DNA of 64,000 nt from Salinivirgaceae bacterium (GCA_017527435.1 JAFXQB010000010.1:1941-65940); one strand, 5' to 3'; shown: positions 55,339-62,314, counted from the first letter of the stretch. Notes: generated by a model from the sequence alone, not told the origin. Translations and numbers: made by a program.

Positions 55339-56143
55339 GTTGTGAATTGCTTTCAAAATTGTAATTTTTCGGCGCGGGAACAGGGGTCGGGGTAGCCGAC
55401 GTGCCGCCGATACCGTTGTGAATTGCTTTCAAAATTGTAATTTTTCGGCGCGGGAACAGGAATCTGGCCAAATGTCACGATAACGGACAGTTGTGAATTG
55501 CTTTCAAAATTGTAATTTTTCGGCGCGGGAACAGGTGCGGACAATAGGGAATGATATGAAGGGGGGTTGTGAATTGCTTTCAAAATTGTAATTTTTCGGC
55601 GCGGGAACAGGAATTCTTTAAAAGACAAGAAATTAAATAATGTTGTGAATTGCTTTCAAAATTGTAATTTTTCGGCGCGGGAACAGGCTAAATTATCGTC
55701 TTCACAATGGAATACAAGTTGTGAATTGCTTTCAAAATTGTAATTTTTCGGCGCGGGAACAGGTGGCGTTACTCGTACAAAAAATTTGCTTTCGTTGTGA
55801 ATTGCTTTCAAAATTGTAATTTTTCGGCGCGGGAACAGGCTACTTCGGCTTTGAAGGCCGCGTTGTTCTGTTGTGAATTGCTTTCAAAATTGTAATTTTT
55901 CGGCGCGGGAACAGGCGGATATGCTCGACAAGGTTGTCGTTTGCCGTTGTGAATTGCTTTCAAAATTGTAATTTTTCGGCGCGGGAACAGGTTCCGTCAA
56001 TATTCCGTTTTCGTACCGATAGTTGTGAATTGCTTTCAAAATTGTAATTTTTCGGCGCGGGAACAGGTTTTGCGACCAGTCAACGCCAATATTTTCCGTT
56101 GTGAATTGCTTTCAAAATTGTAATTTTTCGGCGCGGGAACAGG
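55339..56143 (+). CRISPR. CRISPR array, 11 repeats / 10 spacers (type II-C associated)
   Basis: 11 identical copies of GTTGTGAATTGCTTTCAAAATTGTAATTTTTCGGCGCGGGAACAGG (46 nt). They start at 55339, 55415, 55490, 55566, 55642, 55718, 55794, 55870, 55946, 56022 and 56098. Spacers are unique, 30 nt (one of 29 nt). Strand is assigned from complementarity to the plus-strand tracrRNA. Confidence 0.97.
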
Positions 56144-56198
56144 AGATTATCCAAAAAACGCTGATTCACAACAAAATGAAACCTGTTTTAGAAACAGA

Positions 56199-56227
56199 AA
56201 ATCCGACCCTTTTGAGTCGGATTTTTT
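56199..56227 (+). terminator. rho-independent terminator between the array and cas2
   Basis: AAATCCGAC-CCTTTTGA-GTCGGATTT with T6 on the plus strand, the direction of array read-through. It probably also serves cas2 on the minus strand, where the tract is weaker. Confidence 0.75.
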
Positions 56228-56251
56228 GCTTTATGCGGCTGTTTTTTCGGT

Positions 56252-56587
56252 TCAAAACAACTCCAACTGCTGAACTGGGTGAGCGGCCTCAACGGGCTTC
56301 TTGCACGAGAAAATCTCCATCTCGCCAAACTGCTTGTCGGTAATGCGCAGAATGCCTATCTGCCCAAACTCGGGCATAATGCTCTTCACCCGCTTTATGT
56401 GGACATCGGCATTCTCCGCGCTCGGGCAGTGGCGCAGATATATCGAGAACTGAAACATTGTGAAACCATCGGCCATCAGCCTCTTGCGGAAATCGGCGTA
56501 TGCCTTCTTCTCCTTCTTGGTTTCGGTCGGCAAATCGAACAAAACAAGCACCCACATAATCCGATATTCACTGAAACGTTCCATCAA
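56252..56587 (-). CDS. cas2: CRISPR-associated endoribonuclease Cas2
   Basis: 111 aa. [43 protein letters not shown] is a typical type II Cas2 ferredoxin-fold N-terminus. 4-nt overlap with cas1. Confidence 0.92.
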
Positions 56588-60500: not shown

Positions 60501-62167
60501 GTCAGTCCATTTAATATTGTTGTTCGTGTTTCATTACAAGGGTATTCTTTGTCCTCGACATAGTTCCAGCGATACGGATACTGGTCTTTGCCTTTTTCTT
60601 TTTTGAATTTGAAATACGAATTGAGCAACGTGTCCTGTTTGATAGAAGCCCTGTCGTTAAGCCAATCGAAAAGAGCCACATAGTCATCTTCATTTTTCAG
60701 TAATTCAGCAGTAACATCGACATCCGTTTGAAGTTTTCCTGCAGATACATTTCCAAACAAATCTAATTGCCCATCGCTGATAGTTCGTTCTCTCTGATAA
60801 ATTTTCAGATTTTGCAAGAATTGCCACAACCTAAACTCTTGAAACAAAGGATTTGATTTGGCAACACACTTTACTGGGTGTTCATTCCCGTCTTTGTCAA
60901 AATGCGATTCATAAGGACAATCACTTATCAAAGACTTTTTACTCTTCAACGGACGCTGATAGAACAATATGTCGTTGATAAATAGATTGGTGAAGTTGGG
61001 ATTTGCAATATTATTACGGTGTGCTTCATTGTTCGGATATAGTTCATCCACACAAGCCTTATATAGTTTTTCATCTCGTAACTCTGGAATCAATGCTTTC
61101 TGCACTTCAAGAATCTGCATCAACTCGTCTTTGTAATATTTGCGTTCAACAGTCCGAACAAGTTTTCCAATAATTTTTTGATTCGGATTTTGAAGAAGCG
61201 CATCATAAATATAACAACCGACAGTCTTGTGACTATTCTTGAGATCTTCCTCTGTTTTCATCTTTATCAATTTCCACTCGCTATCCCATTCTGCTTCCGT
61301 AGGAATCTTGAAACGTCTACTTAATTGACCATCTTCGTATTTGTCATTTCCGTCCTTATTTATATCGACAGTAACAATTATATTTTTTTCTAACCCAATC
61401 CAATTGGGAATATCCCTTTTGAAAATTTTTCCAACATCACCATTTTGAAGTACAACATTCAAAACCTTTAACCCTTTATACAATTGCCCTGTATCAACAA
61501 TATCAACAACAGTCTGTTTGTCAAAATATTGTCTCGTCTTTGGCGTAACATTTTCTTCTTCATCTTCTCCACGAAGCTGATAATAACCGCGTTTTTGATT
61601 GAATTGCAACAAAATCCACGCAAGTTCTTCCTTTTTCAATCGCCAACTTAATGCTTTTTTACGCAAATAATAAATAGTCCAGTCATAAGGCACTTTTTTA
61701 TTATTGGCAACAAGTTGTGGTTGATTTTTGGCAAAATCAGCAAGCATCTCATTGAATGAATCTTTGAAAATGAATTCATAATTACCATCAATACCTTTAG
61801 TCCAAGCCAATTTCGGTTCTCCATTGCCAACAAACTTGCCATATTCATCTATTTGGTTTGCAAAGTGTTCTGGCAGAAAATTCATAAGTTTCAGCACACG
61901 TAACAAACGCTCCCGACGCAGAAGATTACGCTCTAACAACCGACGCACGCCGCGAAAGCCTGTGCGGGTTGCCGTTTGTGAGACAGAATTTCCCTTTTCG
62001 AACTCGCCCAAAATGTCTGCCGACATCGGGATAATACGGCTACCAGCCGCACTGATTCCTGTCGGCTTTAAATATGTTGTTTCATTTTCGCGTTTTTCTT
62101 CGTTCGCATTCACCACCGCCCAACCAATACTGTTAGTGCCCAAATCGAGACCTAATATTTTCTTCAT
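57512..62167 (-). CDS. cas9: CRISPR-associated endonuclease Cas9, large Bacteroidota type II-C form
   Basis: 1551 aa. RuvC-I GLDLGTNSIGWAV (Asp8). Arg-rich bridge helix RTGFRGVRRLLERNLLRRERLL. RuvC-II IHVELGREM (Glu755). HNH YEIEHVIPQS...SNKV (His881). RuvC-III DHRHHAMDAIV (His1080/Asp1083). No csn2 or cas4 in the locus. Confidence 0.97.
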   Translation of the reverse strand: MKKILGLDLGTNSIGWAVVNANEEKRENETTYLKPTGISAAGSRIIPMSADILGEFEKGNSVSQTATRTGFRGVRRLLERNLLRRERLLRVLKLMNFLPEHFANQIDEYGKFVGNGEPKLAWTKGIDGNYEFIFKDSFNEMLADFAKNQPQLVANNKKVPYDWTIYYLRKKALSWRLKKEELAWILLQFNQKRGYYQLRGEDEEENVTPKTRQYFDKQTVVDIVDTGQLYKGLKVLNVVLQNGDVGKIFKRDIPNWIGLEKNIIVTVDINKDGNDKYEDGQLSRRFKIPTEAEWDSEWKLIKMKTEEDLKNSHKTVGCYIYDALLQNPNQKIIGKLVRTVERKYYKDELMQILEVQKALIPELRDEKLYKACVDELYPNNEAHRNNIANPNFTNLFINDILFYQRPLKSKKSLISDCPYESHFDKDGNEHPVKCVAKSNPLFQEFRLWQFLQNLKIYQRERTISDGQLDLFGNVSAGKLQTDVDVTAELLKNEDDYVALFDWLNDRASIKQDTLLNSYFKFKKEKGKDQYPYRWNYVEDKEYPCNETRTTILNGLTKCGVSADFLTKEQEMALWHILYSVEDKIEIGKALKKYAEKNHLPESFAEVFAKIKPFAKDYGSYSEKAIKKLLPLMRIGKYWSIDAIDTKTKERIEKIITGEYDESIKNRVREKAINLTDETHFKGLPIWLACYIVYDRHSEAKEIDKWNKPEDIDNYLKEFKQHSLRNPIVEQVVTETLRTVRDIWRKEGQIDEIHVELGREMKNPADKRRRMTENILQNENTNLRIKAMLLEFMNPEMGIENVRPYSPSQQDILRIYEENALDNLTKEDPEFDFVSKISKTAQPSKSDIVRYKLWLEQKYRSPYTGEMIPLAKLFTSAYEIEHVIPQSRYFDDSFSNKVICEAEVNKLKNRQLGFEFIKNHKGEKVQISQGNTVEILSVEAYEKFVKDHYNNNRAKMKKLLMDDIPDGFIERQLNDSRYISKLVKGLLSNIVRWKLPNGEYEQEAVSKNLISCSGSITDHLKKDWGMGDVWNSIVLPRFKRLNELTGKNVFTAISAEGHEIPAMPLELQRGFNKKRIDHRHHAMDAIVIACATRDHVNLLNNEAAHSKHNANRYQLQRKLRRFETKLIDGKEIEVAKEFLKPWDNFTVDAKEKLENIIVSFKQNLRVINKTTNQYQHYDSDGKKVFVKQKKGDSWAIRKSMHKDTVFGEVNLRFKKTVSLNEALKNPKAIVNKDFKAKILELLKAGRDAKYIKKYVEDNKDVWSDIDVKKIYVYYFTKETNDRYFATRFLSDLVGYMSGIKEYSKAIEKIEGITDTGIQKILKAHLQAKNNNPELAFSADGIDEMNRNIVELNKGKFHYPIYKVRRFEKGNKFPIGQTGSKMAKFVEADKGTNLFFAVFATNVEDKETGETKVVRSYLTIPLNVMIDCQKKFGVKWQSNMESYLKDNELISNDVTLLFILSPNDLVYLPTNEELKDGIKVVDKKRIYKMVSSSGYQCFFVNEKVAKTIVDKVEFSSLNKTERAITGEMIKEICVPLKVDRLGNIIELNSRKND

Positions 62168-62222
62168 AAAATTGCTTTATTAAATTTCCCTTAAAATTAA
62201 GATATTTTTTAAGCAGGAATCA

Positions 62223-62230
62223 TATATTTG
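62223..62230 (+). promoter_or_regulatory. Candidate -7 promoter box of the tracrRNA
   Basis: TATATTTG (perfect TAnnTTTG) immediately 5' of the anti-repeat and divergent from cas9. Confidence 0.5.
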
Positions 62231-62231
62231 C

Positions 62232-62314
62232 AATTACAATTTTGAAGCAATTCACAATAAGGATTATTCCGTTGTGAAAACATTAGGCTGCCTCGTCCTC
62301 AACGGGGCTTTTTT
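62232..62314 (+). ncRNA. tracrRNA
   Basis: The anti-repeat ATTACAATTTTGAAGCAATTCACAA (62233-62257) pairs with repeat nt 2-27, with one bulged U. It is followed by TAAGG and a GGATTATTCC-GTT nexus-like hairpin (compare AAGGCUAGUCCGUU of Spy tracrRNA). A GCCTCG/CGGGGC hairpin and T6 (62309-62314) close it. The exact 5' end is unknown. Confidence 0.85.

What the first reader, a model, noticed from the sequence alone, without database searches (positions are those of the whole stretch)
55339..62314. Complete, compact type II-C CRISPR-Cas system with an unusually large Cas9 and an opposite-strand RNA layout
The locus contains everything needed for function in 7 kb:
- tracrRNA (plus strand, 62232-62314), divergent from cas9
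- cas9-cas1-cas2 (minus strand), translationally coupled through 8-nt and 4-nt overlaps
- a plus-strand terminator (56199-56227)
- an 11-repeat array

The array's crRNA sense strand is the plus strand. That is the only orientation complementary to the terminator-defined tracrRNA. Both guide RNAs are therefore transcribed opposite to the cas operon, and the array converges on cas2. There is no csn2 or cas4, which makes it subtype II-C by gene content. All nuclease residues and the Cas1/Cas2 signatures are intact, and the repeats are identical, so the system looks active.

The locus sits directly next to tRNA-Ser, a common landing site for acquired DNA. The Cas9 is about 45-55% longer than the characterised II-C enzymes and uses 46-nt repeats. 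Members of this large Bacteroidota clade are poorly characterised biochemically. The PAM, guide architecture and any extra activities are therefore open.
Basis: partly seen in the sequence, partly recalled or inferred. Interest (0 to 1): 0.8.

Follow-up and report, generated by a model that had tools for sequence, protein, structure and literature searches.

The report
Ordinary Bacteroidales type II-C CRISPR-Cas9 locus
This is a complete and intact-looking CRISPR-Cas9 immune locus of the long-repeat type II-C kind that is common in Bacteroidota; its large Cas9, its 46-nt repeats and its guide RNAs read opposite to the cas genes are all normal for that group, so it is ordinary.

Summary
- 11 identical 46-nt repeats with 10 spacers
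- cas9-cas1-cas2 on the minus strand
- a terminator between cas2 and the array
- a divergent tracrRNA

The type II-C call and the RNA orientation are correct. [quoted passage not shown]

The claims of unusualness do not hold:
- **Orientation.** Transcription of the array opposite to the cas genes, toward a cas2-proximal leader, is the documented II-C norm. I found it in 19 of 20 related loci.
- **Cas9 size.** 1551 aa is typical of this Bacteroidales clade (1427-1662 aa).
- **Characterised relatives.** The closest solved structure is CbCas9 (1442 aa). The tracrRNA core is identical to that of the "clade X" Cas9s of Gasiunas 2020, which have measured PAMs and working sgRNAs.
- **Annotation.** The exact protein is already in NCBI as Cas9 of a Salinivirgaceae MAG.

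The PAM of this orthologue remains unknown, because no protospacer was found. Activity is inferred, not shown.

Two side observations:
- The leader carries an inverted copy of the repeat's 3' end that covaries with the repeat.
- There is a sharp codon-composition break at the cas9/cas1 junction.

Verdict: new member of a known kind, low interest.

The parts
55339..56143 (+). CRISPR array: 11 identical 46-nt repeats and 10 spacers (29-30 nt). crRNA sense is the plus strand. Each repeat carries a near-consensus Bacteroidetes promoter: TTG at nt 2-4 and TAATTTTT at nt 24-31.
   Evidence: Orientation follows from complementarity to the tracrRNA. 16 of 20 related repeat consensus sequences have an exact TAnnTTTG at the same place. 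The promoter role is inferred from motif and literature (PMC8092290, PMC10309648).
56144..56251 (.). Leader: the conserved cas2-proximal flank of the array, and the presumed site of new-spacer insertion.
   Evidence: It is almost identical in L004, whose other array flank is unrelated and whose cas-distal repeat is degenerate with 4 mismatches. The architecture is conserved in 20 loci. [quoted passage not shown]
56182..56191 (+). Leader motif CCTGTTTTAG: an inverted copy of the repeat's 3' end, at +38 from the leader-repeat junction.
   Evidence: Each leader matches the reverse complement of its own repeat end better than those of other loci (146 against 120.5 +/- 4.0; 0 of 2000 permutations reach 146). 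Function unknown.
56198..56227 (.). Hairpin terminator with an A-run upstream and a T-run downstream, between cas2 and the array. It probably ends both the cas operon and crRNA-sense read-through.
   Evidence: The hairpin is kept with different stem sequences in related loci. Terminator function is inferred.
56252..56584 (-). cas2 (110 aa from the ATG at 56584; the stop codon of cas1 overlaps it by 1 nt).
   Evidence: Pfam CRISPR_Cas2, TIGR01573 at 72 bits, PADLOC Cas2_II at 157 bits. Called as 110 aa in public assemblies.
56584..57519 (-). cas1 (311 aa), overlapping cas9 by 8 nt.
   Evidence: TIGR03639 cas1_NMENI at 308.7 bits over the full length; PADLOC Cas1_II at 387 bits.
57512..62167 (-). 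cas9 (1551 aa) with intact RuvC and HNH motifs. A segment at residues 1216-1304 is about 70 aa longer than the matching part of CbCas9.
   Evidence: The exact protein is in NCBI as Cas9 of a Salinivirgaceae MAG.
62223..62230 (+). TATATTTG: a Bacteroidetes -7 promoter box (TAnnTTTG) for the tracrRNA.
   Evidence: The same motif lies 1-5 nt upstream of the anti-repeat in 19 of 20 distinct related loci. tRNA-Ser has TACTTTTG at 55046-55053. The promoter role is inferred.
62233..62314 (+). tracrRNA: anti-repeat (62233-62258), invariant core TAAGGATTATTCCGTTGTGAAAACAT, then a terminator hairpin and T6.
   Evidence: The same core is found in the validated clade X tracrRNAs and sgRNAs of Gasiunas 2020. 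The exact 5' end is not determined.

Best explanation
This is a canonical type II-C CRISPR-Cas9 adaptive immune cassette (55339-62318) of the Bacteroidota long-repeat lineage. That lineage is 'clade X' of Gasiunas 2020 and the Bacteroidetes subcluster of Chylinski 2013. The host is a Bacteroidales (Salinivirgaceae) metagenome-assembled genome.

**Shown by sequence and comparison**
- Intact cas9, cas1 and cas2.
- 11 identical repeats.
- A tracrRNA that pairs with repeat nt 1-27 with one bulged U.
- A conserved leader next to cas2.
- A conserved hairpin terminator between cas2 and the array.

**Inferred mechanism**
1. The tracrRNA is transcribed from the TATATTTG -7 box, divergently from cas9.
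2. Each repeat carries its own Bacteroidetes-type promoter (TTG, 19 nt, TAATTTTT). Short crRNA precursors therefore start inside a repeat, run through the next spacer and repeat on the plus strand toward the leader, and stop at the terminator.
3. The repeat pairs with the tracrRNA and the pair loads into Cas9.
4. Cas9 cuts DNA that matches the 30-nt spacer and has a 3' PAM. The PAM is still unknown.
5. Cas1-Cas2 insert new spacers at the cas2-proximal repeat.

The cassette moves horizontally as a unit. Its cas9 also has a different compositional history from its cas1-cas2.
For: **Gene identities.**

**Catalytic residues.** They sit at the positions that read A in the PDB chain named deadCbCas9 and are conserved.

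**tracrRNA and repeat duplex.** Of the 22 duplex pairs, 11 show compensatory double changes across 18 loci. The fold has z = -8.5.

**tracrRNA position and promoter.** Position, promoter box and an invariant core are conserved in 21 loci. The core is identical in the biochemically validated clade X guides.

**Array orientation.** It is opposite to cas9 in 19 of 20 loci.

**Leader assignment.** The cas2-side flank is conserved while L004 has a degenerate distal repeat and an unrelated distal flank. Experiments agree in R. anatipestifer (PMC6008519) and N. meningitidis (PMC12477760).

**Repeat-embedded promoters.** They are documented for II-C (PMC8092290, PMC10309648, PMC12477760). An exact TAnnTTTG is present in 16 of 20 related repeat consensus sequences.

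**Horizontal transfer.** Homology to L004 runs from window 62318, just past the tracrRNA terminator, to the distal end of the array, in a different genomic context.

**Composition.** cas9 GC3 is 0.37, against 0.64 for cas1, 0.69 for cas2 and 0.55-0.70 for most host genes.
Against: - No expression or activity data exist for this locus.
- The repeat's -7 box is one base off consensus (TAATTTTT, where G is expected at the last position). Repeat-internal transcription may therefore be weak.
- No protospacer was found for any spacer tested, so neither targets nor the PAM are known.
- Two independent samples carry an identical array, so no spacer turnover was seen. One of those assemblies has a 1-nt deletion in an A5 run of cas9. 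This could be an assembly error or a real loss-of-function variant.
Confidence: 0.9

Rival explanations
1. The locus is an intact-looking but silent or decaying relic. It is no longer acquiring spacers or interfering, and is on the way to loss.
For: - The array is identical in two independent samples.
- One assembly has a frameshifted cas9.
- The repeat promoter box is off consensus.
- No spacer matched viral, plasmid or metagenome collections.
Against: - All three ORFs are full length with conserved catalytic motifs in three of four assemblies.
- All 11 repeats are identical, and the tracrRNA and its promoter box are perfect.
- The frameshift lies in a homopolymer, a typical assembly error.
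- Missing protospacer matches are usual for spacers from uncultured hosts.
Confidence: 0.08
2. The extra length of Cas9 (the segment at residues 1216-1304 plus REC insertions) adds an activity or partner interaction that characterised II-C enzymes lack. This would make it a functionally distinct variant.
For: - The segment has no counterpart in CbCas9.
- It is conserved across the Bacteroidales clade.
- It is the best-predicted part of the C-terminal model, with pLDDT about 77-88 and a helices-plus-hairpin shape.
Against: - No Pfam, NCBIfam or PADLOC family other than Cas9 domains hits the protein.
- The fold search returns only Cas9 structures.
- About 70 aa of helices and a hairpin is too small for a nuclease domain.
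- No accessory gene is present in this locus.
- The insertion has two length variants among close relatives, as expected of a surface elaboration.
Confidence: 0.04
3. The system has been partly repurposed for regulation. The short anti-repeat-like sequence in the leader (GATTCACAAC, 56163-56172), followed by hairpins, would act as a small CRISPR-associated RNA that pairs with repeats or the tracrRNA.
For: The reverse complement of the repeat's 5' end is found at +19 in 6-7 related leaders. The ATTCACAA word is enriched near the locus.
Against: - The signal is weak: 150 against 138 +/- 2.9 in shuffles, and absent from many loci.
- Only about 9 nt are complementary.
- No promoter is evident apart from the last repeat.
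- The stronger leader motif, the inverted 3' end, fits a DNA-level integration signal better.
Confidence: 0.02

Closest known systems
CbCas9 (Chryseobacterium type II-C Cas9; PDB 8iyq, 8wmh, 8wmm, 8wmn, 8wr4; Zhang et al. 2024, Nature 630:484)
   Same: It is the best solved-structure match: 1455 bits, aligned over query residues 2-1215 and 1305-1545. It has the same domain order, the same catalytic positions, and also belongs to Bacteroidota II-C.
   Different: - CbCas9 is 1442 aa. The window protein has a segment about 70 aa longer at 1216-1304, plus about 40 aa of smaller insertions.
- The C-terminal third is only 36% identical, so the PAM cannot be transferred.
- CbCas9 works with the PIN-domain accessory protein PcrIIC1. 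No such gene is in this locus.
Clade X Cas9 orthologues of Gasiunas et al. 2020 (PMC7606464): Cca1 (Capnocytophaga canis, 1430 aa, PAM BRTTTTT), Ffr (Flavobacterium frigidarium, 1345 aa), Phi (Prevotella histicola, 1380 aa), Psp (Parabacteroides sp., 1424 aa, PAM NRTTTT)
   Same: - Repeats are 45-50 nt and begin GUUGUG/GUUGUA.
- The tracrRNA core AAUAAGGAUUAUUCCGUUGUGAAAACAU is identical (Phi differs by one base, CCGAUG).
- The Phi 3' hairpin is nearly the same as the window's.
   Different: - The window Cas9 is 120-200 aa longer.
- Its repeat:anti-repeat duplex has a 1-nt bulge, whereas the paper calls clade X duplexes 'typically fully complementary'.
- Its PAM has not been measured, and PAMs differ among clade X members.
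Riemerella anatipestifer, Flavobacterium columnare and F. psychrophilum type II-C systems (PMC6008519, PMC8092290, PMC10309648)
   Same: - The tracrRNA lies upstream of cas9, followed by cas9-cas1-cas2, a leader and the array.
- Spacers are 30 bp. Repeats are 46 bp in F. psychrophilum.
- Spacers are acquired at the cas2-proximal end.
- Repeat-embedded promoters drive transcription toward the leader.
   Different: Those are cultured Flavobacteriales with experimental adaptation and interference data and known PAMs (for example NNNNNTAAA in F. columnare). The window locus comes from an uncultured Bacteroidales genome and has no such data.
Neisseria meningitidis and Campylobacter jejuni type II-C (NmeCas9, CjeCas9)
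   Same: The gene content is the same. The array is transcribed opposite to the cas operon from repeat-internal promoters (PMC3737331, PMC12477760). Cas1 matches the NMENI Cas1 model.
   Different: Those systems have 36-nt repeats, Cas9 of about 1000-1080 aa and sigma-70-type repeat promoters. Only the HNH/RuvC-III region aligns by sequence.

Membership tests
Type II-C CRISPR-Cas | A single large effector, Cas9, with RuvC-like and HNH nuclease domains | tested here: met
   Pfam RuvC_III, HNH_4 and Cas9-BH; TIGR01865 at 389 bits (cut-off 100); catalytic D8, E756, H881 and HHAMDA present.
Type II-C CRISPR-Cas | An adaptation module of cas1 and cas2 only, with no csn2 (II-A) or cas4 (II-B, II-D) | tested here: met
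   Cas1_II and Cas2_II were found. The genes overlap, so no other ORF fits inside the operon. Flanking genes are housekeeping or have no family match.
Type II-C CRISPR-Cas | A tracrRNA with an anti-repeat complementary to the CRISPR repeat | tested here: met
   The duplex has about 26 pairs with one bulge. Compensatory changes occur in 11 of 22 pairs across 18 loci.
Type II-C CRISPR-Cas | Cas9 falls in the II-C branch of the Cas9 tree | tested here: inconclusive
   No tree was built. The best PDB match is the II-C enzyme CbCas9. The guide RNA module equals that of clade X, which I take to be II-C from its Bacteroidota membership and the CbCas9 match.
Type II-C CRISPR-Cas | crRNAs transcribed from repeat-embedded promoters toward the leader | not testable with these tools
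   Only motif evidence is available: TTG, 19 nt, then TAATTTTT in each repeat, against an exact TAnnTTTG in 16 of 20 related repeat consensus sequences. RNA-seq is needed.
Bacteroidota long-repeat Cas9 lineage (clade X, Gasiunas 2020; Bacteroidetes subcluster, Chylinski 2013) | CRISPR repeats of 45-50 nt | tested here: met
   The repeat is 46 nt, within the ranges given in PMC7606464 and PMC3737331.
Bacteroidota long-repeat Cas9 lineage (clade X, Gasiunas 2020; Bacteroidetes subcluster, Chylinski 2013) | Shared tracrRNA architecture: nexus and core AAGGAUUAUUCCGUUGUGAAAACAU, then one terminator hairpin | tested here: met
   The core is identical in the window and 21 related loci and in the Cca1, Ffr and Psp guides; 18 occurrences in Supplementary Data 2.
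Bacteroidota long-repeat Cas9 lineage (clade X, Gasiunas 2020; Bacteroidetes subcluster, Chylinski 2013) | Repeat:anti-repeat duplex typically fully complementary, without a bulge | tested here: not met
   One unpaired U at repeat nt 14 is conserved in nearly all 18 loci. The paper says 'typically', so this is not a strict criterion.
PcrIIC1-associated Cas9 systems (Zhang 2024) | A PIN-domain PcrIIC1 gene in the locus | tested here: not met
   There is no extra ORF in the operon. Neighbouring ORFs have no PIN or PADLOC hit.
PcrIIC1-associated Cas9 systems (Zhang 2024) | A conserved C-terminal helix (CTH) of Cas9 that binds PcrIIC1 | tested here: inconclusive
   The alignment to CbCas9 ends at residue 1429 of 1442, leaving only 6 residues in the window protein. 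The CTH boundaries were not available to me.

The most novel reading that the evidence does not exclude
The most novel reading concerns the leader, not Cas9. In this Bacteroidota II-C lineage the leader carries an inverted copy of the repeat's leader-proximal end. The copy sits at a fixed distance, +38 nt in 12 loci and +57-62 nt in a few others, and covaries with each locus's own repeat. I found no description of it in the papers I could search.

It could be a second docking or ruler site that gives Cas1-Cas2 its polarity in II-C systems. Alternatively, it could be an RNA element that pairs with the last repeat to stop crRNA-sense read-through.

A second reading is that the roughly 1500-1660-aa Bacteroidales Cas9 subclade, with its 1216-1304 segment, has a PAM or property not seen in characterised clade X enzymes.
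Probability: 0.25. Interest if true: 0.4.

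Novelty: new member of a known kind. Interest (0 to 1): 0.15.

Why it matters
It matters little as a discovery. The locus adds one more uncharacterised orthologue to a very large family: more than 7600 homologues, hundreds of them at 75-89% identity. That family's architecture, guide RNA design and biology are already described, and the protein itself is already annotated as Cas9 in NCBI.

**Practical value.** A working sgRNA can be designed directly from the validated clade X scaffolds. The PAM of a 1.5-kaa Bacteroidales orthologue could then be measured in a single cell-free screen.

**Comparative by-products.** These could help people who study II-C spacer integration and module exchange, and they are more useful than the locus itself:
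- the covarying inverted repeat-end motif in the leader
- the compositional break at the cas9/cas1 junction
- the Bro-N, RhuM and YhcG genes inserted between cas9 and cas1 in relatives

Tried and rejected
1. **Protospacer and PAM search.**
   - The 3' 22-23 nt of 8 spacers were searched against IMG/VR.
   - Two spacers were searched against JGI metagenomes.
   - The whole array was searched against GenBank phages and PLSDB plasmids.
   - There were no spacer hits, only repeat-like sequences, so no PAM could be inferred.
   - No spacer shares a 15-mer with the rest of the window.
2. **Rfam.** No tracrRNA or CRISPR-DR family matched, even at E <= 1. The library's models do not cover this lineage.
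3. **tRNA-linked island.** There is no direct or inverted repeat of 10 nt or more between the two flanks, and no integrase. I rejected an integrative-element reading.
4. **PcrIIC1 or another accessory gene in the window.** None was found.
5. **Sigma-70 promoter scan.** It was not enriched over shuffles (18 against 16.7) and does not fit a Bacteroidota host. TAnnTTTG is also not enriched window-wide (42 against 46.8). Its weight comes only from its conserved position in 19 of 20 loci.
6. **AlphaFold2 model of residues 1100-1551.** Confidence was only moderate (pLDDT 61, pTM 0.34). The fold search confirmed Cas9-only similarity, but the model cannot define the function of the insertion.
7. **Array polarity from strain comparison.** The second sample has an identical array, so it gave no information. 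Polarity rests on leader conservation and on the degenerate distal repeat of L004.
8. **Papers not held.** The CbCas9 Nature paper and Chylinski 2014 were unavailable. I could not read the CbCas9 PAM or the CTH boundaries.

Full report
**1. What is in the sequence**

The array at 55339-56143 has 11 identical 46-nt repeats (GTTGTGAATTGCTTTCAAAATTGTAATTTTTCGGCGCGGGAACAGG). It has 10 unique spacers of 29-30 nt.

Three overlapping minus-strand ORFs follow:
- cas9, 57512-62167, 1551 aa
- cas1, 56584-57519, 311 aa
- cas2, 56252-56584, 110 aa

Family searches identify them without ambiguity:
- Cas9 matches Pfam RuvC_III (3.7e-59), HNH_4 and the Cas9 bridge helix, and TIGR01865 at 389 bits.
- Cas1 matches the type II model TIGR03639 over its full length, at 308.7 bits.
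- Cas2 matches TIGR01573. PADLOC calls the adaptation pair Cas1_II and Cas2_II.

For cas2 the likelier start is the ATG at 56584, which gives a TGATG overlap of 1 nt, rather than the TTG at 56587. Public gene calls on the same DNA use that ATG.

Catalytic residues are present:
- D8 and H881 sit exactly where the PDB chain named deadCbCas9 has alanine.
- E756 and the HHAMDA motif at 1079 are also there.
- These columns are at least 90% conserved in an alignment with 23 homologues.

There is no csn2 or cas4. The neighbours are an LptD/OstA-like protein, a MoxR ATPase, PPIases and a secreted 299-aa ORF with no family match. tRNA-Ser(UGA) lies at 55063-55150.

**2. The RNAs**

The plus strand at 62233-62258 is complementary to repeat nt 1-27, with one bulged U. 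It is followed by TAAGGATTATTCCGTTGTGAAAACAT, a GC hairpin and T6 ending at 62314. A repeat-loop-tracr fusion folds at -45.4 kcal/mol, z = -8.5.

I collected 26 related loci from GTDB genomes and several from metagenome assemblies. In all 21 loci that could be analysed:
- an anti-repeat lies 52-171 nt upstream of cas9 on the opposite strand;
- the 26-nt core after it is nearly invariant, with 1-nt variants in 3 loci;
- the terminator hairpin varies in sequence;
- in 19 of 20 distinct loci, an exact Bacteroidetes -7 promoter box TAnnTTTG lies 1-5 nt upstream.

The window's box is TATATTTG at 62223-62230, and tRNA-Ser has TACTTTTG at 55046-55053.

Across 18 loci, 11 of the 22 duplex pairs show compensatory double changes. 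The tracrRNA and the plus-strand sense of the crRNA are therefore well supported by comparison, although the exact ends are not determined.

**3. Array orientation and leader**

In 19 of 20 related loci with an array, the GTTGTG-sense strand is opposite to cas9 and the array lies after cas2.

L004 has a Cas9 89.6% identical to the window's and sits in a different genome context. Three things about it are informative:
- Its 108-nt stretch between cas2 and the array is almost identical to window 56144-56251.
- Its other array flank is unrelated.
- Its cas-distal repeat has 4 mismatches.

The cas2-proximal flank is therefore the leader, and crRNA transcription runs toward it.

This matches the literature:
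- Arrays are transcribed opposite to the cas operon in N. meningitidis and C. jejuni (PMC3737331).
[quoted passage not shown] Sixteen of the 20 related repeat consensus sequences contain an exact TAnnTTTG. The window's repeat has TAATTTTT, one base off, with a TTG 19 nt upstream. Repeat-internal promoters are thus likely here but possibly weaker.

The hairpin at 56198-56227 has an A-run before it and a T-run after it. It is conserved in the related leaders with different stem sequences. It most likely terminates transcription from both sides.

**4. Is the Cas9 unusual?**

The exact protein is in NCBI as 'MAG: type II CRISPR RNA-guided endonuclease Cas9 [Salinivirgaceae bacterium]'. More than 7600 homologues were scored, and the best 120 are 75-100% identical and nearly all 1526-1636 aa long (one truncated call of 1383 aa, the frameshifted L032 copy). 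GTDB relatives at 52-84% identity come mostly from rumen and gut Bacteroidales MAGs, and also from cultured Bacteroides faecis and B. pyogenes. They measure 1427-1662 aa.

The best solved structure is CbCas9 (1442 aa, 1455 bits). It aligns over residues 2-1215 and 1305-1545. The main length difference is a segment at 1216-1304 that replaces about 18 residues of CbCas9. This segment is shared by the whole Bacteroidales clade, in two length variants.

An AlphaFold2 model of residues 1100-1551 was only moderately confident (pLDDT 61). It places helices and a beta-hairpin in that segment. The fold search returned only Cas9 structures, with CbCas9 first at 36% identity. No non-Cas9 domain was detected. 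The size is a clade trait, not an extra enzymatic module.

**5. How well characterised is the group?**

Chylinski 2013 already singled out a Bacteroidetes Cas9 subcluster with repeats up to 48 nt (PMC3737331).

Gasiunas 2020 characterised clade X orthologues with 45-50-bp repeats. Examples are Capnocytophaga canis (1430 aa, PAM BRTTTTT), Flavobacterium frigidarium (1345 aa), Prevotella histicola (1380 aa) and Parabacteroides sp. (1424 aa, PAM NRTTTT). Their tracrRNAs and working sgRNAs contain the same AAUAAGGAUUAUUCCGUUGUGAAAACAU core as the window.

The guide architecture is therefore known. Only the PAM of this orthologue is open. PAMs vary within the clade and the PI region is divergent, so it cannot be predicted. 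No protospacer was found in any collection.

**6. Mobility and composition**

Homology between the window and L004 runs from 62318, just past the tracrRNA terminator, to the distal end of the array, apart from a divergent stretch at 61280-61550 inside cas9. The two flanking contexts are unrelated. No integrase or flanking repeat is present. The cassette moves as a unit, and the tRNA-Ser adjacency has no mechanistic support.

cas9 has GC3 of 0.37, against 0.64 for cas1, 0.69 for cas2 and 0.55-0.70 for most host genes; the unannotated 299-aa ORF is lower, at 0.46.

Similarity to relatives is incongruent between genes:

| Locus | Cas9 identity | Cas1 identity | Cas2 identity |
|---|---|---|---|
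| L004 | 89.6% | 98% | 99% |
| L006 / L007 | 82-85% | 68-70% | 73.6% |

This pattern fits the in situ shuffling of cas9 against the adaptation module that has been reported for Flavobacteriales II-C loci (PMC12669027, Extended Data Fig. 9).

**7. Side finding in the leader**

Each leader carries the reverse complement of its own repeat's last 8-10 nt. The copy sits at +38-40 from the junction in 12 loci and at +57-62 in a few others. In the window it is CCTGTTTTAG at 56182-56191.

- Summed best matches are 161, against 123 +/- 3.2 for shuffled leaders.
- They are 146, against 120.5 +/- 4.0 when repeats are permuted among loci. None of 2000 permutations reaches 146.

The window's motif fits the L004 repeat end (9 of 10) better than its own (7 of 10).

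Hoikkala 2021 reports poly(A) and poly(T) leader motifs but not this one. I did not find it described in the papers I could search. Its role is unknown; it could be an integrase docking or ruler site, or an RNA structure.

**8. Activity**

Everything needed is intact, but activity is inferred. Two samples carry identical arrays. One assembly has a 1-nt deletion in an A5 run of cas9. No targets were found.

**9. Verdict**

The II-C typing and the RNA orientation are correct. The features presented as unusual are the norm for a well-populated and partly characterised lineage. This is a new member of a known kind, with interest about 0.15.

Noticed in passing
window 56182-56191 (and 56163-56172); related loci L001-L030 leaders: The leader carries an inverted copy of the repeat's 3' end at a fixed offset, +38-40 or +57-62 nt from the leader-repeat junction. 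The copy covaries with each locus's own repeat (own 146 against permuted 120.5 +/- 4.0; 0 of 2000 permutations). A weaker inverted copy of the repeat's 5' end (GATTCACAAC) lies at +19 in 6-7 loci. I did not find this described in the papers I could search.
   Followed up: partly
window 56252-62167 (the cas9/cas1 junction at 57512-57519): There is a sharp compositional break. cas9 has GC3 of 0.37, against 0.64 for cas1, 0.69 for cas2 and 0.55-0.70 for most host genes. Cas9 and Cas1 similarities to relatives are also incongruent: L004 has Cas1 at 98% but Cas9 at 89.6%, while L006 and L007 have Cas9 at 82-85% but Cas1 at 68-70%. This suggests that cas9 has been exchanged against the adaptation module.
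   Followed up: partly
L008 9629-10453, L017 9581-10414, L022 9647-10429, L010 9695-10750, L012 4864-5946, L016 9629-9901: Several related loci have an extra gene inserted between cas9 and cas1. In L008, L010, L012 and L017 it abuts or overlaps both neighbours. It is a Bro-N domain protein (274-277 aa) in L008, L017 and L022, a RhuM-family protein (351 aa) in L010, and a YhcG/DUF1016 PDDEXK nuclease (360 aa) in L012. L016 has a 90-aa ORF there whose N-terminus resembles that of the L010 RhuM protein by eye (not scanned). The window locus has none of these.
   Followed up: partly
GenBank phages, e.g. OR089151.1 29393-29515 and NC_019490.1 31667-31711; plasmid NZ_CP027230.1 3581-3610: Riemerella phages carry solitary sequences of about 45 nt that are about 90% identical to this repeat family. 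A Capnocytophaga plasmid carries a 30-nt one. These could be phage-borne repeat mimics or RNA anti-CRISPRs. They are not in the window.
   Followed up: no
window 55246-55289: A 23-nt unit (AAAGTGAGACTGAMAAAWGTTTC) is duplicated in tandem, 1.9 copies, between the tRNA-Ser terminator and the cas-distal end of the array. Its function is unknown, and it is absent from the L004 flank.
   Followed up: no
window 62341-62348 and 62495-62502: Two further plus-strand copies of the anti-repeat word ATTCACAA lie within 250 nt downstream of the tracrRNA. The second (CAGTTTTATTGGAATTCACAAG) matches 16 of 22 positions of the anti-repeat. They may be relics of older anti-repeats, or chance; 8 other copies occur elsewhere in the window.
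   Followed up: no
window 58066-58070 (L032, ENA ERZ28018792): A second sample carries the same 12-kb region at 100% identity, except for a 1-nt deletion in a T5 (coding A5) run. The deletion splits cas9 into 1383-aa and 172-aa ORFs. It could be an assembly artefact or a real inactivating variant. The arrays are identical in both samples.
   Followed up: partly
L028 12166-12825: This is the one related locus (a Paludibacteraceae MAG, Cas9 of 1662 aa) in which the array's GTTGTG sense is on the same strand as cas9. It is the only exception to the convergent layout among 20 loci.
   Followed up: no
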